From the NCBI GenBank assembly GCA_963817895.1, contig CAWFQB010000012.1:12223-76222 (forward strand): DNA of 64,000 bases, read 5' to 3'. Source of the DNA: an uncultured Chthonomonadaceae bacterium (lineage in GTDB: Bacteria > Armatimonadota > Chthonomonadetes > Chthonomonadales > Chthonomonadaceae). Below the pieces are notes generated by a model that saw nothing but the letters and a program-made list of their open reading frames with translations, was not told the DNA's origin and searched no databases. A program made the translations under genes and the position numbers. Of this stretch, positions 226 to 19,729 are shown one piece after another (position 1 is the first letter of the stretch; each line of letters begins with the position of its first letter).

Positions 226-1290
226 ATGACCGTTCCGACTATTGCGACCAACAACTCTGTTTCTCCCGGCGTAGCGCCCTCCGCTCCTGACGATATGGCG
301 CGTTTGCAGAAATTGCGGGATGCGTTTGATTCCATGCGCCGCGAAATCGGGCAGGTGGTTATCGGGCAGGATGCGGTTGTGGAAGAATTGCTGATGGCCG
401 TGTTCGCGCGGGGGCATTGTATCCTCGTCGGCGTTCCCGGACTGGCGAAAACCCTGCTTGTCAGCACGGTTTCGCGCGTTCTGAACCTGTCCTACAAGCG
501 TATTCAGTTTACGCCCGACCTGATGCCCGCCGACATTACAGGCACGGAAATCATACAGGAAGACCAGGTGACGCGGGAGCGCAAGTTCGTGTTTTTGCGC
601 GGGCCGCTGTTCGCGAATATGATTCTGGCGGACGAAATCAACCGAACCCCGCCCAAAACGCAGGCCGCGTTGCTGGAAGCCATGCAGGAGCATAAAATCA
701 CGGTTGGCGGACAGTCGCACAAACTGGCCGAGCCGTTCTTTGTCCTCGCCACGCAAAACCCCATCGAGCAGGAAGGCACGTATCCTCTGCCGGAAGCGCA
801 ATTAGACCGCTTCATGTTTATGATTATCGTGGGCTACCCATCGGCGGAAGAGGAAGTGGCGATTATGAAGGCCACAACGGGCGGCATGAACGCCGAACTC
901 CGCGCCACGCTGACGGGTGAAGACATTATCGCTTTGCAGGACATTGTGCGGCGTATTCCCGTTGGGGATCATGTTTTCCGCTACGCCGCGCAGCTTGTGC
1001 GTCAAACACGCCCCAATGAACCCGAAGCGCCCGCGTTCATCAAGGACAACATCAGTTGGGGAGCCGGTCCGCGCGCCTCGCAGTATCTCGTGTTGGGAGC
1101 CAAAGCCCGCGCCGCGCTGTACGGACGCAACTACGCCACAACCGAAGACGTTGCCGCCGTCGCCCTGCCCGTCCTGCGCCACCGCATCGTGACCAACTTC
1201 AACGCGGAAGCGGAAGGTTTGACGACAGACAAAATCGTGCAGAAATTGATTGCCTCAACCCCGCGCCCAACCGAACCCATCCGAAAGTAA
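226..1290 (+). CDS. moxR: MoxR-family AAA+ ATPase
   Basis: Walker [21 protein letters not shown], Walker [30 protein letters not shown]. Confidence 0.95.
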
Positions 1291-1327: not shown

Positions 1328-2284
1328 ATGCAGCAACACCAACAAAGGCCGGAACGAGAAGCATATCAAGCCAATCGTTGCAACAAAATGGATGCAAACG
1401 GCTTGCCGCAAGGGGCGCAGGCCGCTTCCGCCTTTACGCCTGTGTCACTTGATACCATTCTGCGGAACATGAACAGTCGGAAAGCGAAGGAGCAGCATGA
1501 GGCTGTTCGAGCAGTCGGGTTGTTGATAACTTCCGCGCCCGATCAACTGCTGTTGCTTGCGAAAATGGAAGCCCAAAACTATCAGCGTCATGCCGCCTCG
1601 GGCGCAATCATCAGCCTCGCAATCGTTGCGCTGGTGGGCATGGCATGCGTCCTGTTAAGTAAGAGCAACATCTGGGCAATAGATAACGCTTTATACATTT
1701 TTGCGGGAACGTGCATCGCGCTGGCCTGCTGGTTAAGTTTGTATCTGCCGCGCCGGGCGCGTCGTAATATGATTGATGTGTATCATTATCTGGATGATCC
1801 GCGCTTTATCGGCCTTGCGCTCAACATGCTTGTACCGGATGGCATTACGGAGTCGCGCCAATCGCCAATGTACACCGGTTACGTTCAAGCGAGTATGGTA
1901 GGTGCGCTGACCAAAATGCTGAAGCGCGTGAATGTGAGTCATAAAACCCTGCTCACATGCGAACAGATGCAAATTTTACTGTCCGTGCTACAGCATTCCC
2001 GAACGGACAGGGCATTAACACTGGCTATTCTCCGCGCCTTACAGCAAATCGGCGATGAGAGCGCTATTCCCATTGTGGAGCGCATAGCCCGCTCGACGTT
2101 CGACGTTCATTCCGAGGCCGAAGAGTGTCTGGAGTACCTGCGTGGTCAAGCAGATCAGAAACGTCAGGCGCAAACCCTGTTGCGGGCTTCCGACAGCGTG
2201 GTAAGTACCCGACCGGAACACATGCTGCGCCCCGCCAATCCCGAAACCGACGCCGCGCCGGAGCAACTGTTGCGCCCCTCATAA
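1328..2284 (+). CDS. Two-TM, HEAT-like helical protein with triple LLR(A/P) C-terminal tail (paralog 1)
   Basis: Two hydrophobic segments, LQQIGDESAIP, tail TLLRAS..MLRPA..PEQLLRPS; start uncertain (1328 or 1388). Confidence 0.8.
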   Translation: MQQHQQRPEREAYQANRCNKMDANGLPQGAQAASAFTPVSLDTILRNMNSRKAKEQHEAVRAVGLLITSAPDQLLLLAKMEAQNYQRHAASGAIISLAIVALVGMACVLLSKSNIWAIDNALYIFAGTCIALACWLSLYLPRRARRNMIDVYHYLDDPRFIGLALNMLVPDGITESRQSPMYTGYVQASMVGALTKMLKRVNVSHKTLLTCEQMQILLSVLQHSRTDRALTLAILRALQQIGDESAIPIVERIARSTFDVHSEAEECLEYLRGQADQKRQAQTLLRASDSVVSTRPEHMLRPANPETDAAPEQLLRPS

Positions 2285-2301
2285 GGTAGGTAAAACAACA
2301 C

Positions 2302-2412
2302 CGTAGGGACACAACTTGTTGTGTCCTCCTCCGGCAACGTTGTGTTCTGCGGCGTAGAGGCAGGCGCGGACACAACCGCGCCAATGCGGACACAACAAGT
2401 TGTGTCCCTACG
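2302..2412. repeat. REP-like GTAG doublet (25-bp perfect inverted repeat)
   Basis: CGTAGGGACACAACTTGTTGTGTCC (2302-2326) and its exact reverse complement (2388-2412); each arm is GTAG plus an internal palindrome. Confidence 0.85.
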
Positions 2413-2451
2413 AACGTTTTTCAAAGTAGTCAAAGGGTCGTTAAGAGATAA

Positions 2452-3333
2452 ATGGCGGAAGTTGTTAGAAATAGCGCGGAAACAACGCTCAAGGGGCTGT
2501 ACAGCCGAAACCCTGCGATTGCGGAAGCGGCCCGTCATCAGGCGGAGCGGCTGACTACAGAAGAGTTTTTGCGGCTGCTGCACTTGTTCGAGTCGGAATC
2601 GTCACGGACGCAGATAGGTAAGGGAACACGCGCCTTTGTCTTTCTGTTTTTGCTCTGTATGTGCGGAGCATCGGGATACGCGACATGGATAGATCAACAT
2701 TATTGGGGCATGGGGTTTTTCATGACGGCGTTCTGGACGGCGTTGGCGGTCAGTTGTTTCTTCTGGCGTGTTCGCTATACCAACGAGGACAGCGAACAAG
2801 TTGAAAGCTGTCTGCGGGGCGTACTGAAAACAATGCAATCGCCCGCCCTCGCGCAGGCGGCAGCGGTTTTGCTCGACAAACGCCAGCAGCAGGAGCTTGC
2901 CAACCACGTTTCGTATGGCAATATCGCGATTATCCATGCCGCATACGCGGCTTTGCTGCTCAACCTGCCAACGCTGCCAACGGCGCAGGGATGGAACCCG
3001 TCAGGCCGTCAGGCGTTGTATGATTTGTTGCAGGACGATACCTATGAACACAAACTCGCGTCGCATATTCTGGATGCCGCCGCTCGTTGGCGCGATGTGG
3101 ATGCTCTGCCACAAGTAAGTAAGCTGGCGAAGCGCGAAGATCGTCCTATGCCCCTGCGCCGCCACGCGAACGAGGTAATGACTCTTCTGCTGGCGGAACG
3201 GCAGAAGCGGCAGTTGGGCGACAGCTTGCTGCGGGCATCCGAGGCTCCGCAGGGGCAAAGCAGGCGGGAACTGCTGCGTCCCGCAACAGGCCATGCGGAA
3301 ACGCCGCCCGAACAACTGTTGCGGCCCTCATAA
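2452..3333 (+). CDS. Two-TM, HEAT-like protein with triple LLR(A/P) tail (paralog 2)
   Basis: Two TM segments, ILDAAARWRDVDALPQ, tail SLLRAS..ELLRPA..PEQLLRPS. Confidence 0.85.
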   Translation: MAEVVRNSAETTLKGLYSRNPAIAEAARHQAERLTTEEFLRLLHLFESESSRTQIGKGTRAFVFLFLLCMCGASGYATWIDQHYWGMGFFMTAFWTALAVSCFFWRVRYTNEDSEQVESCLRGVLKTMQSPALAQAAAVLLDKRQQQELANHVSYGNIAIIHAAYAALLLNLPTLPTAQGWNPSGRQALYDLLQDDTYEHKLASHILDAAARWRDVDALPQVSKLAKREDRPMPLRRHANEVMTLLLAERQKRQLGDSLLRASEAPQGQSRRELLRPATGHAETPPEQLLRPS

Positions 3334-3349
3334 GACAGGTAAGAACAAA

Positions 3350-4234
3350 ATGGCACAGGTCACCCAAAACAGCGCGGAAGCGATACTCGAAGGACTGTAC
3401 AGCCAAAATCCTGCGGCTGTGGAAACCGTACGCCATCACGTAAAACATTTGTCTGCCGAGGAGTTGTTACATCTGCTGAGTTTGCGACACTCGGAAGAGG
3501 TACGTACACAGATGGGAAAGCGAACGCGAACCTTTGGCGTTGCGTTTTTTCTCTGTATAAGTGGATTAACCGGGAGCTTGATACGGGCAGATCAAAGTTT
3601 TTTGGCTCTTGCACTTTTAGCGACGCCATTATGGATGGTATTGGCGGTAGTTTTTTTCTTCTGGCGAAGTCGCTATACCAAAGAAGATAGCGAACGAGTT
3701 GGGTACAGTATACGCTGGGTGCTGAGGGATACCCATTCATCAGCCCTTGCTCAAGTCGCTGCGTTGCAGCGCAACGAACGCCAACAGTATGAACTCGTTA
3801 ATCGAGCTTCGTATGGCGCTATTGGATTTCTGCATGAGGCACCTCAGATATTGCTACGCATCCTGCCTACACTGGAAACGGCAAATGGATGGAATGCAAA
3901 GAGCCGCCACGCCTTGTTTGAATTGATCCTGGACTACTACGAAGAACCCAAACTTGTTTTCTGCATTCTGGATGCCGCCGCCCGCTGGCGCGATGTGGAC
4001 GCCCTGCCGCAACTAAGTGAGTTGACGAGGAGAGAAAATTGTCCACAGCCCCTGCGCCGTCACGCGAACGAGGTCATGACTCTGCTGATTGCCGAACGGC
4101 AGAAACGACAATTGGGCGAAGGATTGCTGCGGGCGTCCCAGCGTCCTCAAGGGCAAAGCAGGCAGGAACTGCTGCGTCCGGCTACCCGTCACGCGGAGAC
4201 GCCGCCTGAACAACTGCTGCGCCCGCAAACCTGA
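3350..4234 (+). CDS. Two-TM, HEAT-like protein with triple LLR(A/P) tail (paralog 3)
   Basis: Colinear with paralog 2 (MAQVTQNSAE vs MAEVVRNSAE; same ILDAAARWRDVDALPQ); tail GLLRAS..ELLRPA..PEQLLRPQT; start at ATG 3350. Confidence 0.85.
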   Translation: MAQVTQNSAEAILEGLYSQNPAAVETVRHHVKHLSAEELLHLLSLRHSEEVRTQMGKRTRTFGVAFFLCISGLTGSLIRADQSFLALALLATPLWMVLAVVFFFWRSRYTKEDSERVGYSIRWVLRDTHSSALAQVAALQRNERQQYELVNRASYGAIGFLHEAPQILLRILPTLETANGWNAKSRHALFELILDYYEEPKLVFCILDAAARWRDVDALPQLSELTRRENCPQPLRRHANEVMTLLIAERQKRQLGEGLLRASQRPQGQSRQELLRPATRHAETPPEQLLRPQT

Positions 4235-4264
4235 CAAACCGCTATTCGCATCGGGAGCGTCAAC

Positions 4265-5164
4265 ATGCAGGCTGAAATCGTATCCCCTCAACTGGATAAG
4301 GTGGAATGTGAGCGGCACTTACGCGGGCTGAACAGCTATAAACGCGAAACCCGCGAAACCGCCCTGCGGCAGATAGCCGCGCTGACGCCGGAACATCTGC
4401 TGCAACTGATGCGGGAAGGGTCGCGTTTTTACAGAAAGCGCTACCGTCTGAGTTCCTGTGTCGAACGGGCTTTGGTGATTTCGTGTTTTCCCATTGGCAT
4501 GATACTGTATGCTCTCTCTGCCGATGGAGTAGTCTGGTTGGCGCTATTGATAGTGGCGTTCATCGCAATCGGCTGGCGTTTTCTGACCGTACCCTGGCGT
4601 ATGTACCGCTCTCTCGTTGGCGTTCTGGAACACACCGAGGATTTGAAGCTGATTGGACCGATGATTACGATGTATGTTCGCCCGGAAGGGCTGAGATACA
4701 AGCTGGATGCGCTGGGAAATATGCTGTGCCGCCTGTTGCCGCAACTGCGTTTCGATCATGCCGGTCTGCTGACTGTCGAACAGAAGCAGGATATGCTTCG
4801 TCTGCTTCCTGTAAGTATTGGCTCTAAAGACGGGAGGTTAAACGTAAGCGCCTTAGACTTGAATATTGCCCTGCAAACCTTGAAAGCATTGGAACAAATT
4901 GGGGATGAAAGCGCTATTCCCGCCGTGAAACGGCTAACATGGGATTCTTTCAATAATAACAAAACTGTACAGAAAGCCGCCGAGCAGTGTCTCAAACATT
5001 TGCGCTCACATCCCGGTCAGCATAAGGAGATGCAAACCCTGTTACGCGCATCCGCCGTCACAGAATCCGCCTCCGATACTCTGCTGCGCCCTGCATCCGG
5101 CAACACCGACACCGCCCCTGAACAACTGCTGCGCCCGACAGCGCAAGGCAAAGTCGGAACCTGA
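4265..5164 (+). CDS. Two-TM, HEAT-like protein with triple LLR(A/P) tail (paralog 4)
   Basis: LEQIGDESAIP closely matches paralog 1; tail TLLRAS..TLLRPA..PEQLLRPT. Confidence 0.85.
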   Translation: MQAEIVSPQLDKVECERHLRGLNSYKRETRETALRQIAALTPEHLLQLMREGSRFYRKRYRLSSCVERALVISCFPIGMILYALSADGVVWLALLIVAFIAIGWRFLTVPWRMYRSLVGVLEHTEDLKLIGPMITMYVRPEGLRYKLDALGNMLCRLLPQLRFDHAGLLTVEQKQDMLRLLPVSIGSKDGRLNVSALDLNIALQTLKALEQIGDESAIPAVKRLTWDSFNNNKTVQKAAEQCLKHLRSHPGQHKEMQTLLRASAVTESASDTLLRPASGNTDTAPEQLLRPTAQGKVGT

Positions 5165-5192: not shown

Positions 5193-6101
5193 ATGGAAAC
5201 ACAAACAAAACAACTGGCGGACCCGCAAACGCTGGCCCGCATCGCCAAACTGGAACTACGCGCCCGCGCCGTTGTGGAGGGCGTCATATCCGGTATGCAC
5301 AAAAGCCCGCACCGTGGCAGCAGCGTGGAATTCGCGCAGCACCGCGATTATGTGCCGGGGGACGAAATACGGCATATTGACTGGAAAGTGTACGCCCGCT
5401 CGGACCGCTACCAGATCAAGCAGTACGAAGAGGAGACGAACCTCAAAGCCACGCTTGTCGTAGATACCAGTACCAGCATGGATTACAAGGGCATCAATTC
5501 CGCCCTGTCCAAGCGCGAGTACGCCGCCATTGTCGCTGCCGCCATCGCGTCCCTGCTGATGCGGCAGCGCGACACGGTTGGCCTGACGACATTTGATGAT
5601 AATATCCGAACGTTCATTCCCCCGGCAGGCACGAGCGCGCACATGAAACTGCTGTTGGAAATGCTGGAAAAGCGGGACACCGCGCCCAAAACCATGATCG
5701 GCAACACGTTTCACGACCTAGCCGAGCGCGTGAAACGTCGGGGAATGTTGGTTGTTCTCAGCGACCTGTTCACCGATCCTGACGAGATGTTGCGCGGCCT
5801 GCAGCACTTCCGGCACCGCAAGCATGAAGTGATTATCTTCCACGTCTTAGACCGGGATGAACTGACGTTTCCCTTCAAGGATTCCGCCGTGTTTCAGGGC
5901 ATGGAGGGCGAAGAGCCGCTGATGGCTGAACCCAACGCCCTGCGCCGCGAGTACCTGAACGCTTTCGGCGCGTATGTCGAAAAACTGAAAAAAGGCTGTC
6001 GCGAACTCAATATGGACTACCAGCAGCTTGTCACCGATCAGCCCGTAGACACGTCCATCTCGCGCTATCTCTCGTCACGTTCCAATCAAGGCAAACGATA
6101 A
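5193..6101 (+). CDS. DUF58 domain protein (MoxR-associated, vWA-like)
   Basis: GSSVEFAQHRDYVPGDEIRHIDWKVYAR, VDTSTSM. Confidence 0.92.
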   Translation: METQTKQLADPQTLARIAKLELRARAVVEGVISGMHKSPHRGSSVEFAQHRDYVPGDEIRHIDWKVYARSDRYQIKQYEEETNLKATLVVDTSTSMDYKGINSALSKREYAAIVAAAIASLLMRQRDTVGLTTFDDNIRTFIPPAGTSAHMKLLLEMLEKRDTAPKTMIGNTFHDLAERVKRRGMLVVLSDLFTDPDEMLRGLQHFRHRKHEVIIFHVLDRDELTFPFKDSAVFQGMEGEEPLMAEPNALRREYLNAFGAYVEKLKKGCRELNMDYQQLVTDQPVDTSISRYLSSRSNQGKR

Positions 6102-6112
6102 CCTTATTAGCT

Positions 6113-8288
6113 ATGCCACCCTTTCTAAACCCAATCTTTCTTTACGCCGTCGCGTTTGCGGGCGTGCCACTGCTTATTCACCTGATACGGCGGCGCAAAC
6201 TCAAGGTCGTCCAGTGGGCAGCGATGGAGTTTTTGCGCCAGTCGCAGAAGAAGCAGCGGCGGCGGATGCGAATCGAAGAGCTGATTCTGCTCACGCTGCG
6301 GACGCTGATTGTGATACTCGCCTGTCTCGCGTTCGCGCGTCCTGTCACGCACACGCTGGGCGCAGCCCTTCTGTCACAGAATCAGCGCGTGTACGCCGTG
6401 CTTGTCGTGGACAATTCCTATAGCATGGGGCAACGGGGGCGGGACGGCAAAAGCAGTCAGGAGCGCGGCGCATACCTATGCGTCGCAAATCCTGACCCGC
6501 ATCCTCAAACCCGGCGACTCGGCCTCCCTCGTGCTGCTGTCCGACAAGCCGGAAGCGCTTATCAACTCGCCCAGTTTTGACCGCGATTCGATTTTGCGGC
6601 GTTTGCGGACGGTTGCGCTTGTGGATCGCCCGACCGATTATCTGGCAACCGCGCAGCTTGTCAACAAACTGCTGAAAGCGTCCAATGCGCCCGTGAAAGA
6701 GGTGTACTGGCTCAGTGACGATCAGGCGACCGCGTGGGCGACGAGCAAGCGCGATAGCGCGCGTCCCGTGTGGCAGGAGTTGGGCCGGCAGGCGCGGCTG
6801 ACGTGGGTATCCGTTGGCGCGCCGAACGGGGAGCGGGATAACCTTGTCGTGGAAGCCCCCACTCTGAGCCGGGAACTGGTCACACCACAACTGCCCGTTC
6901 GTATCGAAGCGAAAATAGTGAATTACGGAGCAAAACCCCGCAACGATGTTCTGGTCAACCTGAAAATAGATGGCAAGCAATCCGACAGCAAGCGCGTGTC
7001 CATTGCGCCGGGCGGAAACGTCCTCGTCCGGTTCCCGCAAACGCCCTTTCTGACAACCGGAACGCGCGTCGGGCGGATTGAACTGGCGGACGCTTCGCAT
7101 GTAGACGGACTGGAGCGCGACAACGGCGCGGACTTTGTTGTCCGCTGCCGGGACAGAATCAGAGTTCTGGTACAGGACATGCACCCGTCCGGCGACCCGA
7201 CCAAAAGCGACAGTTTTTACCTGCTGAACGCGATGGCCCCCAACGGGGCGCAGGAGAGTCTGGCCGCGAAACTGCGCGAAGGGCCGGGATTGGGCGGCGT
7301 GACCCTGCGCGACTACGACGTGGTGATTCTGACGGGCGTAAGCGGCCTGTCTACGGGAGATAAACGCGCCCTGACGGAGTACGTGAAAGCGGGCGGCGGC
7401 CTGATGCTGTTTCCGGGTAATGGCACGGAAGCGAGCCGCGTCAATGCCGATCTTGGCGGTGAGGGGGGCTTGCTGCCCGCTCGCCTGACAGCGACGAAAA
7501 CCCTGAGCGACAGCAACGCGATGACGCTCAACCCCGGTTCCGTTACGCATCCCGCTCTGACCATGTTCAAGGACACGTCGAGCCTGAATGTGGCGAGCGT
7601 GCGGTTTACGCGGTATTTCGGTCTGGAACCCGCGCTGGAAGCCAACGATCCAAACGCCGTACAGGTGATGATGCGCTTCAGCAACGGCGACCCCGCCTTT
7701 GTGGAGCGGCATGTGGAACTGGGGCGCGTGATCCTCGCGGCAAGCAGCGCGGGCGCGTCGTGGAACCAGTTGCCGCTCAAGCCGAGCTACGTTCCCTTAG
7801 TGTATCAACTGCTGTTTTATCTGGGACAGGGCGCGGCCTCGCACCGCAATCTCGCGCAGGAAGAACCGCTGTTTCTCGCCCTGCCGCTTTCCGATGCCAA
7901 CAAGCCCGTGCGCGTGACCACGCCGGACGGACGGACAACCACGCAGAACAGCGCGTTGGATGCGCGGGGCGTCACATTCCGCTACGGCGCAACGCAGCAG
8001 TCGGGCGTGTACAAAATCGCCGTGCAGGGCAGCCCAACGCAGGACGCTTTTGCCGTCAGCCTGCCCACTGCCGAGTCCGACCTGACCGCAACCGATCCCG
8101 CGCAGGCCGCGACACAGGCCGGTGTTGTCGGCAACCGTTTGAGCGTGGCGAATACGGCGCAGCAATTGCAAACGTCGGTATCTCGCGCCCGCTACGGCGC
8201 AGAAATCTGGCGAACCCTGCTGATGACGGTAATCGGCCTGCTGTTCCTCGAAATCGTCCTCGCGCAACAGTTCGGACGAAGAGGATAG
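6113..8288 (+). CDS. BatA N-terminal / vWA domain membrane protein, split by one frameshift near 6465
   Basis: BatA N-terminus (PLLIHL..WAAMEFL..LAFARP) and VDNSYSM in ORF 6113-6580; continues in ORF 6402-8288 to C-terminal TM 'EIWRTLL..LEIVLAQ'. Confidence 0.85.
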
Positions 8289-18328: not shown

Positions 18329-19603
18329 CTACGGACGGCGGCGCAGGAAGGCGGGAATGTCTATGTCCTCGTTGTTGGACTTGCGCTCCGGCTGTGATGG
18401 GGACTGAGACGGCGTGGCGGGCGTGTTCGGCTGTGACGCGGGCGTTTCTCCGGCGCGGGTGGGCGCGTTTGCGGCGGGCGGATTGCCTGAAGCGGGTGGC
18501 GTAGAGCGTCCGTTGTTGACCGAGTCGCCGGGTTGATACGGGCGGGTAGACGGGTACGCGCTTGCGTTGCGGGGTGGCGGTTGCGGGGTTGGCGTGGTTG
18601 TTGCTGTCGGCTTGATGATTTCCCCGGCGGCATTTACGCCGCTGAAGCCGGTTGCCAGCACCGTAACGCGCACTTCGCCCTCCAGACTCGGATCGGCCAC
18701 CCACCCGAAGATGATGTTGGCGTCGTTCTGGTCGCACAGTTCCTGAATCTGGTTGGCGGCTTCCGTGAACTCCTGTAGGGTCAGGTCGTTACCGGACGTG
18801 ACGTTGACAAGGACACGCGACGCGCCGTTGATGCTTGTTTCCAGCAGTTGCGACGAAACCGCATTCTGGGCCGCTTCTACTGCCCGATGATCGCCGCTGC
18901 CATACCCGATGCCCATCAGGGCGGGACCCGCGTGAGTCATAATCGCCCGCACGTCGGCAAAATCCACGTTGATCATGCCGGGAATGGTGATGATGTCGGA
19001 GATACCCTGTACGCCCTGCCGCAGCACATCATCCGCCATTTTGAAGGCTTCCACCAGAGTCATGCGCCGGTCGCCAACGGACAGCAACTTTTCGTTCGGC
19101 ACAATGATGATGGTATCAACCTTACTTTTCAGTTCTTCGACACCCGCTTCGGCCAATCGCATTCGGCGCGGGCCTTCAAATGGGAACGGTTTGGTGACGA
19201 CCGCAACGGTCAACGCGCCCATTTCCGCCGCGATTTCGGCAATCACGGGCGCGGCCCCGGTTCCGGTTCCGCCGCCCATGCCTGCCGTGATGAACACCAT
19301 GTCCGCGCCATCAAGCATCTTCTTGATTTCGCTTTTACTCTCCTCCGCCGCCACGCGCCCGATGCTCGGATCGCCGCCCGCGCCAAGCCCGCGCGTGGAG
19401 TTTTCGCCAAGCTGAAGTTTGCGCGGCGCTTTGGAGATGTTCAACACCTGAACATCCGTGTTCATCGCCAGAAACTCGATGCCGCTCAAGCCCGACTCGA
19501 TCATACGATTGACCGCGTTCGTGCCGCCGCCGCCCGCGCCAATCACTTTGATTCGCGCCGAACCCAATTCCGGCAAACTTCCACCAAGAGAATTATTTAT
19601 CAT
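18329..19603 (-). CDS. ftsZ: Cell division protein FtsZ
   Basis: GGGTGTG tubulin motif, NVDFADV, C-terminal DIPAFLRR. Confidence 0.98.
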
Positions 19604-19729
19604 CGGACGCCCTTCCCGCAAAAATGTCAAGATTCACTCTAAAATGATAGGATTCATTATATCTAAAAACGCCCTCGGAATCCAACTAATTCCGGGTTGC
19701 TTTCCGTATTCGTTGCTATACATGCGTTT

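What the first reader, a model, noticed from the sequence alone, without database searches (positions are those of the whole stretch)
1328..5164. Array of four divergent membrane proteins sharing a triple LLR(A/P) C-terminal tail, embedded in a MoxR-DUF58-vWA operon
Seen: four tandem ~300-aa genes share an N-terminal helix (L+(G/N)(L/M).S...E.A...LL.L), two TM segments, a HEAT-like region and a conserved tail 'LLRAS-x~9-(L/M)LRPA-x~7-PEQLLRP', while their middles diverge strongly. They separate moxR from DUF58, which are normally adjacent. Known: MoxR ATPases work with vWA partners as chaperones or remodelers. Inference: the tail may be an undescribed docking, sorting or degradation signal, and these proteins may be variable clients or adaptors of the MoxR/vWA machine. 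I do not recognise a named family for this tail.
Basis: partly seen in the sequence, partly recalled or inferred. Interest (0 to 1): 0.85.

Follow-up and report, generated by a model that had tools for sequence, protein, structure and literature searches.

The report
Three-part LLR tail on membrane proteins
The four genes are real members of a very large, unnamed protein family of one bacterial order whose members end in the same evenly spaced three-part peptide tag, probably a docking signal for a shared partner that is still unknown, and their place inside the MoxR operon looks like an inherited accident rather than a functional link.

Summary
Observation confirmed: four ~295-aa genes between moxR and DUF58 end in LLRAS..[LM]LRPA..PEQLLRP. 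The tail is not operon-specific. It ends 85 ORFs at 57 places in this genome (0 in reversed control), and matched 17 of 20 genomes of this order versus 0 of 181 others in the phylum. It sits on unrelated bodies: TM-hairpin/HEAT, small two-TM and Spo0M-like proteins, the last also occurring tail-less. Motif pitch is 13-16 residues in 145 of 152 spacings, with genome-typical codons.

The MoxR link fails. Among 33 near-complete relatives, four have tails but no detectable operon and three have the operon's moxR but no tail. selD keeps a tail neighbour as often (8/20 versus 10/22).

Best reading (0.6, inferred): a modular, cytoplasmic, trivalent docking tag for one oligomeric partner, still unidentified; co-folding was unavailable. 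No Pfam/NCBIfam model matches. The scan noted this family before on another genome (e1-3225718/-719).

The parts
226..1290 (+). moxR, MoxR AAA+ ATPase (354 aa); context, not part of the tail system
   Evidence: Pfam AAA_3 E 9.6e-63; close orthologues in relatives
1388..2284 (+). Gene 1: TM-hairpin/HEAT protein with triple-LLR tail (298 aa; alternative ATG at 1328); orthologue of the single slot-B gene of G001
   Evidence: tree pair SH-aLRT 99
2177..2278 (+). Tail of gene 1: motifs at residues 264, 279, 294
2302..2412 (.). Intergenic 25-nt perfect inverted repeat (GTAG-ended, REP-like); genome-wide repeat, not specific to the array
   Evidence: I1; 54 exact copies of its 14-nt core in the genome
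2452..3333 (+). Gene 2: divergent TM-hairpin/HEAT-like protein with tail (293 aa); recent duplicate of gene 3
   Evidence: 59% identical to gene 3
3226..3327 (+). Tail of gene 2: motifs at residues 259, 274, 289
3350..4234 (+). Gene 3: duplicate of gene 2 (294 aa)
   Evidence: D1
4124..4225 (+). Tail of gene 3: motifs at residues 259, 274, 289
4265..5164 (+). Gene 4: TM-hairpin/HEAT protein with tail (299 aa); modelled
   Evidence: AF2 mean pLDDT 86.3
4445..4594 (+). Hydrophobic hairpin of gene 4 (residues ~61-110), basic residues on both flanks, most variable region
5039..5137 (+). Tail of gene 4: motifs at residues 259, 273, 288; low pLDDT after motif 1
5193..6101 (+). DUF58 (vWA-like) gene; context
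   Evidence: Pfam DUF58 E 9.3e-49
6113..8288 (+). BatA-vWA gene, split into two ORFs (6113-6580, 6402-8288) by a one-base insertion near 6465; context
   Evidence: BatA E 3.5e-18, VWA_2 E 1.6e-4; intact 724-aa orthologue in G002

Best explanation
The four genes are a local tandem expansion of an order-wide family (relatives are named Chthonomonadaceae/Armatimonadota by their sources). The shared unit is a ~35-residue C-terminal module: three [LM][LV]R[APSG] motifs about 15 residues apart, joined by variable P/A/S/T/E/Q linkers. SHOWN: the module is selected as protein, has a fixed count and pitch, is grafted on unrelated bodies and is detachable. INFERRED: it faces the cytoplasm (positive-inside on both sides of the hairpin), is unfolded alone, and binds three neighbouring sites of one oligomeric partner (a ring or polymer) with avidity. 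The variable hairpin/HEAT or arrestin-like body then picks the cargo or stimulus, so many different receptors or adaptors plug into one hub at the membrane. My leading guess for the hub type is a protein-remodelling or degrading ring machine, but no partner is identified. The operon position comes from about two old insertions, inherited and locally duplicated.
For: 85 tail ORFs at 57 places, 0 in reversed control. 64 of 85 have exactly three motifs and 145 of 152 spacings are 13-16 residues; in the 150 best library hits 276 of 293 spacings are exactly 15. Leu and Arg codons at the motif follow genome-wide usage. Tail dN/dS is 0.11/0.76 versus 0.41/0.52 in the hairpin for genes 2/3. HEAT-type and small-type profiles align only over their last 64 columns. 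Spo0M-like proteins carry the tail in 5 of 14 loci and lack it in 9. Tail pLDDT is 52-62 and 48-59 in two models. K/R flank both ends of the hairpin. 3,688 clusters at 50% identity match the tail profile. Neighbours are heterogeneous housekeeping genes.
Against: No partner was found, and binding was never tested (co-folding unavailable). Fixed pitch also fits a small folded or self-assembling repeat, and the small-type model drew a low-confidence helix over residues 125-141. Low pLDDT is not proof of disorder. Topology rests on charge bias only. The first motif ends a confident helix in the HEAT type and may be partly structural. Tail genes do recur in the moxR operon (11 of 18) and beside the proteasomal ATPase (5 of 20).
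Confidence: 0.6

Rival explanations
1. One reading: the tail docks on this MoxR/DUF58/BatA-vWA machine, which remodels these proteins or uses them as adaptors.
For: Tail genes lie in this operon in 11 of 18 other family genomes plus this one, in two slots, with a small-type gene after BatA-vWA in G016. The two slots form separate groups in a quick tree; holding all 17 operon genes together is marginally rejected, p-AU 0.046. Motif 3 has a conserved Glu that a vWA MIDAS could bind (recalled).
Against: Four tail-positive genomes at 96-100% completeness gave no BatA-vWA hit and no close DUF58 or moxR. Three tail-negative genomes keep the moxR orthologue. Fisher p 0.50. 0 of 8 loci of the second family have a tail within 1.5 kb of moxR, and the selD control is similar, 8/20 versus 10/22. 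The slot-B clade also holds five genes that lie elsewhere in this genome. A different, widespread MoxR paralogue (41-49% identity) is not excluded as reader.
Confidence: 0.07
2. The tail tethers adaptors to, or acts as a built-in degron for, the UBact/ARC proteasome: three motifs for the three N-terminal coiled coils of the ATPase ring (coiled-coil number recalled), like arrestin adaptors with PY tails (recalled).
For: Pup-ligase genes occur in 40 of 41 relatives, including every tail-positive one. A tail gene lies upstream of the ARC ATPase in 5 of 20 loci, three of them divergently within 67-223 bp. The tail is also grafted on Spo0M-like proteins. UBact has a conserved LL[KR]R.
Against: The ligase is in 115 of 201 phylum genomes, the tail in 17, so the profiles do not match. 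Tail versus UBact profile probability is 0.06. Four of the five adjacent genes look like one orthologous HEAT group, so about two events.
Confidence: 0.1
3. The tail is a small self-associating module (homotypic adaptor or lattice former), or binds the conserved HEAT groove of sister proteins, clustering the family in the membrane without a separate hub.
For: Fixed pitch and count. A conserved acidic patch (ALEQIGDE) lies in the last HEAT repeat. No co-distributed partner gene was found.
Against: In two monomer models with 94 and 111 sequences the tail stayed low-confidence. Linkers are Pro-rich and variable. No operon core protein carries a second copy, as EAD coupling would need.
Confidence: 0.13
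4. Biological-role rival (compatible with docking): hypervariable membrane immunity or sensor proteins that recognise foreign membrane-inserting proteins and signal through the tail.
For: The hairpin and loop are the most variable part (14-30% identity among five small-type paralogues versus 45-76% in the caps). There are tandem arrays and decayed copies. Ankyrin genes are enriched nearby (10 of 73 within 2.5 kb versus 3.7, p 0.003) and one Imm35 neighbour was seen. 3 of 50 members hit PADLOC HEAT-ARM_XIII.
Against: No dN/dS above 1. No clear toxin among 138 + 37 scanned neighbours, only one deaminase with a MafB19-like hit. Many loci are old and syntenic with housekeeping genes. The ankyrin positions were hand-picked one per gene and several share one island, so p is overstated. 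The PADLOC hit may be generic HEAT.
Confidence: 0.15
5. The tail mimics the RNA polymerase beta-flap tip and sequesters sigma region 4 (membrane anti-sigma factors).
For: The best PDB sequence hit of the tail profile is the flap-tip part of the sigma4/beta chimera 3t72, 7 of 9 residues like motif 3. The genome has 51 sigma-r2 matches.
Against: E 0.13 (stretch E 0.98) is chance level. Sigma genes are not significantly near tail genes (6 versus 3.5 at 3.5 kb, p 0.12). The hydrophobic residues that follow in the flap tip (recalled) are absent.
Confidence: 0.03

Closest known systems
SHOCT domain (PF09851; PMC3581485, abstract and first part of Results read)
   Same: Short (~30 aa) C-terminal module shared by many unrelated, often membrane-linked architectures; function unknown.
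   Different: SHOCT is two amphipathic helices with no indels and is spread over hundreds of species. This tail is three short motifs in Pro-rich linkers, found in one order only, with no PF09851 match.
Effector-associated domains (EADs) of MoxR-vWA ternary conflict systems (PMC7159879, passages read)
   Same: Small non-enzymatic terminal adaptor on diverse paralogues, some encoded away from the core operon.
   Different: EADs are folded domains with one copy on a core component and track the core system across genomes. Here no core protein has the tail and tail and operon vary independently. The paper has 0 occurrences of 'Armatimonadetes'.
CsoS2 [IV]TG repeats (PMC10484944, passages read)
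   Same: Works-like analogy: short motif repeated at regular pitch in a disordered chain that binds several subunits of one assembly.
   Different: Different motif and pitch (about 8 versus 15), soluble scaffold; no BMC shell gene was found in this 81%-complete genome.
PBS-lyase-type HEAT repeat proteins (HEAT_2 PF13646; CpcE/CpcF)
   Same: Body of the major subfamily: HEAT_2 hits in 11 of 62 tail proteins scanned; helical-repeat structural matches, CpcE/F chain Z 7.4, rmsd 7.1, 158 aligned.
   Different: A TM hairpin is inserted after the first helix pair and the tail is added; structural scores are in the common-arrangement range and give no function.
MoxR-proper (MRP) / Bat operon (PMC11834572, passages read)
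   Same: The host operon: moxR, DUF58, BatA-vWA, with DUF4175-like and prenyltransferase-fold genes upstream.
   Different: The tail genes are insertions absent from many orthologous operons.

Membership tests
MoxR/vWA system component or client | Co-occurrence with the MoxR-DUF58-vWA machine across genomes | tested here: not met
   25/4/3/1 in 33 genomes, p 0.50; BatA-vWA not found in 4 of 4 tail-positive genomes lacking the moxR orthologue
MoxR/vWA system component or client | Conserved neighbourhood beyond that of other tail slots | tested here: not met
   moxR 10/22 versus selD 8/20 family loci; 0/8 in the second family
MoxR/vWA system component or client | Physical binding to MoxR, DUF58 or vWA | not tested
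EAD | A second copy fused to a core component | tested here: not met
   None of the 85 tail ORFs is moxR, DUF58 or BatA-vWA
EAD | Small folded domain | tested here: inconclusive
   Tail pLDDT 48-62 in two models; low confidence is not proof of disorder
SHOCT | Match to PF09851 / two amphipathic helices with conserved Gly and Glu | tested here: not met
   0 of 65 tails match at E 0.05
HEAT_2 / PBS-lyase HEAT repeat proteins | Paired-helix repeats by profile or structure | tested here: met
   Family members up to E 5e-14; window genes 1 and 4 below cut-off; helical-repeat model
UBact/Pup-like degron | Profile similarity to UBact and terminal G[EQ] | tested here: not met
   hhalign probability 0.06; variable C-termini
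UBact/Pup-like degron | Binding to the ARC coiled coil | not testable with these tools
   Job not accepted, queue full
Repeat DNA element inserted in genes (RPE/REP-derived tail) | Conservation at synonymous sites | tested here: not met
   Motif codons follow genome usage; tail dS 0.76 versus dN 0.11
Known anti-phage defence system (PADLOC) | Model match plus system partners | tested here: inconclusive
   3 of 50 hit HEAT-ARM_XIII, window gene 4 none; partners not checked

The most novel reading that the evidence does not exclude
The tail is a genetically encoded, trivalent adaptor tag. It lets a bacterium plug dozens of membrane receptors, HEAT proteins and Spo0M (arrestin-like) adaptors, about 1% of its genes, into the UBact/ARC proteasome or an undescribed ring machine without a conjugation step. 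That would be a prokaryotic parallel of arrestin/PY-motif cargo sorting, evolved in a single order.
Probability: 0.12. Interest if true: 0.85.

Novelty: new variant of a known kind. Interest (0 to 1): 0.5.

Why it matters
Bacterial short linear motifs used at this scale (up to ~85 proteins per genome, 3,688 clusters at 50% identity) are rarely described. A fixed three-by-fifteen geometry predicts a specific multi-site partner, and one peptide pull-down could find it. A named, cultured relative carries the family (source names), so the test is feasible. The work also removes a false lead: the MoxR/Bat operon's unknown clients are probably not these proteins.

Tried and rejected
Literature: ten searches returned no paper on this tail. 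The library lacks most subscription papers, and no supplements were opened.

Databases: no named family in Pfam, NCBIfam or PDB sequences. ESM Atlas gave one unnamed Armatimonadota cluster (0.94) for the whole protein and nothing for the tail alone. Fold searches gave only generic helical-repeat or hairpin matches.

Partner leads tried: sigma/beta-flap mimicry; UBact mimicry; BMC shell, not found in this incomplete genome; FtsZ-tail likeness, where the genome's FtsZ ends in a different motif and LLR[PA] is not enriched in other C-termini; a conserved partner beside low-copy tail genes or Spo0M genes, none found (the output of 123 was cut in the middle). A translation-arrest leader role is unlikely: downstream genes are no more often co-oriented and close than average (0.42 versus 0.44).

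Not obtained: co-folding of tail with the ARC N-domain was not available, so nothing was folded. The search for related loci gave nothing. No RNA holder was listed. The promoter/terminator scan was at chance level. The careful tree did not finish, so quick trees were used. No rpoB flap-tip pattern was found in this assembly.
Full report
OBSERVATION. The four ORFs, their order between moxR and DUF58, the N-terminal helix, the hydrophobic hairpin and the triple tail are all there. Motif starts are at residues 264/279/294, 259/274/289, 259/274/289 and 259/273/288. Genes 2 and 3 are a recent pair (59% identical); other pairs are 23-37%. A triple-motif pattern hits 39 of 107,787 six-frame ORFs of the genome and none in three shuffles.

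SCALE. An iterated tail HMM finds 85 ORFs (81 at E below 1e-4; 0 among reversed ORFs) at 57 places, 38 of them within 1.5 kb of another. My simple gene caller kept 65 of the 85 among 6,990 calls; several are fragments. A fifth, divergent copy lies in the same operon just upstream of the window. A 65-row tail alignment (4 window tails plus 61 from the 40 loci fetched, out of 57 places) matched 24 of 24 family genomes (4-71 matches each, 87 in this one), 11 of 14 of a second family and 0 of 2 of a third. In an even phylum sample it matched 17 of 20 genomes of the order and 0 of 181 outside it (this is 'not found in those searched'). It matches 3,688 clusters at 50% identity. Sources name homologues as Chthonomonadaceae, Chthonomonas calidirosea and Armatimonadota (lineage). 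Calling this order Chthonomonadales is my inference from those names.

ANATOMY. Bodies fall into unrelated groups: about 47 TM-hairpin/HEAT proteins, a small two-TM type (18 matches here; 13 of 68 order genomes, all in this family), a three-member group, a Spo0M-like protein and singletons. Of 62 scanned, 11 hit HEAT_2 and one Spo0M. HEAT-type and small-type profiles align only over their last 64 columns. Spo0M-like proteins in the order carry the tail in 5 of 14 fetched loci and lack it in 9, so the tail is a detachable module. The gene 4 model is a helical repeat with the hairpin inserted after the first helix pair; motif 1 caps a long helix and the rest has pLDDT 52-62. The small-type model gives 48-59 for the tail, with a low-confidence helix. 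K/R enrichment on both sides of the hairpin implies N-in/C-in (inference). 64 of 85 tails have exactly three motifs and 145 of 152 spacings are 13-16. In the 150 best library hits, mostly small-type, 139 have three motifs and 276 of 293 spacings are 15. Codons at the motif follow genome usage. Between genes 2 and 3, dN/dS is 0.11/0.76 in the tail and 0.41/0.52 in the hairpin; no region exceeds 1.

THE MOXR LINK, FOR. In 18-kb regions from 18 of the 21 other family genomes with a fetched moxR orthologue (three left out for short contigs), 11 have a tail gene in the operon, either after moxR (slot B) or before the prenyltransferase-fold gene upstream (slot A). A quick tree used 97 of 141 rows (44 dropped for short matches, including three operon-slot genes). 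It puts the six slot-A genes in one clade (SH-aLRT 86) and nine of eleven slot-B genes in a 14-row clade (92) that also holds five genes from elsewhere in this genome; window genes 2/3 are long branches placed apart. Holding all 17 together is marginally rejected (p-AU 0.046, 70 rows, long branches in play). So about two to three insertions, not twelve.

THE MOXR LINK, AGAINST. The other four moxR loci of this genome have no tail gene within 12 kb. Using the close orthologue (at least 67% identity) and tail counts, 33 genomes at least 90% complete split 25 both, 4 tail only, 3 moxR only, 1 neither (Fisher p 0.50; kin are not independent). For the four tail-only genomes the BatA-vWA query found nothing, DUF58 only distant paralogues or none, and MoxR only 41-49% paralogues, while tail-negative G031 gave 40%, 68% and 72% hits. 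These are single-protein queries, so 'not found with this query'. As a like-for-like control, selD (also picked because tail genes flank it here) has a tail gene within 1.5 kb in 8 of 20 family loci, against 10 of 22 for moxR; a third anchor gave 1 of 14 and 2 of 2. Neighbours of tail genes are diverse (138 scanned; 37 of 73 listed), and several slots are syntenic across genera. C. calidirosea is described as having dispersed functionally related genes (PMC4959169, passages), which further weakens neighbourhood as evidence here.

MECHANISM. Shown: a protein-level, fixed-geometry, modular C-terminal tag. Inferred: cytoplasmic, unfolded alone, binding three adjacent sites of one oligomer, with variable bodies supplying specificity (0.6). 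A mere flexible tether would be expected to tolerate length change, which is why I favour a rigid multi-site partner. The partner is unknown. The proteasome lead has universal presence in tail-positive genomes and 5 of 20 adjacent loci, but the ligase is in 115 of 201 phylum genomes and UBact shows no profile match. The beta-flap lead is chance-level. An immunity or sensor role is possible (variable hairpin, ankyrin enrichment) but no toxins or positive selection were seen. Co-folding was not available, so no binding claim was tested.

COMPARISON AND NOVELTY. The nearest kinds are SHOCT (PMC3581485; abstract and first half of Results), EADs (PMC7159879; passages) and, as a works-like analogy, CsoS2 repeats (PMC10484944; passages). 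Membership tests for SHOCT and EAD fail. The host operon is a MoxR-proper/Bat type (PMC11834572; passages). No Pfam or NCBIfam model fits the tail, and ten searches found no description (listed under Tried and rejected); other papers were seen only as search listings and no supplements were read. The arrestin/PY analogy, the three coiled coils of ARC and MIDAS chemistry are recalled. Two earlier scan notes on another genome describe the same family with the same docking-tag reading. I had stated my reading before seeing them, and they are not independent evidence. New here are the independence test against MoxR, the selD control, the pitch statistics and the tail-less versus tailed Spo0M pairs.

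VERDICT. Real, unnamed and large family; operon link probably incidental; new variant of a known kind; interest 0.5.

Noticed in passing
window 6113-8288: BatA-vWA gene split by a one-base insertion near 6465; the Dop-like gene (G000 C14 ~122.7 kb) and a moxR paralogue (C4 ~681 kb) are also split, suggesting assembly indel errors.
   Followed up: partly
window 2302-2412: GTAG-ended 25-nt perfect inverted repeat, REP-like; its 14-nt core occurs 54 times in the genome.
   Followed up: partly
L071:10362-11560 (G002): The slot-B gene of a same-genus genome is in fragments across three frames: pseudogene or sequencing error.
   Followed up: partly
L150-L169: ARC-Dop-UBact-prcB-prcA-PafA locus present in 20 of 20 order genomes fetched; Pup-ligase family in 115 of 201 phylum genomes. 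A soluble HEAT tail gene lies divergently beside ARC in G009, G020 and G021.
   Followed up: partly
L228-L241; G000 C5:371260-372243: In the second family Spo0M-like genes occur in exactly the 11 tail-positive genomes and none of the 3 tail-negative ones, but in only 2 of 25 genomes of this family; possibly one or two shared losses.
   Followed up: partly
G000 C4:38-53 kb (L054): Island with nine small-type tail ORFs (several decayed) interleaved with four ankyrin genes; the genome has 140 Ank_2 matches in about 73 genes.
   Followed up: partly
G000 C1:1533978-1535063: Divergent triple-LLR gene missed by the HMM, lying between two sigma-factor genes.
   Followed up: no
L073:7910-11221 (G023): Three unrelated genes without Pfam match occupy slot B between moxR and DUF58, so the slot accepts other inserts.
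   Followed up: no
window 18329-19630 (- strand): ftsZ lies in the window, and division/cell-wall gene homologues further on; unrelated to the finding.
   Followed up: no
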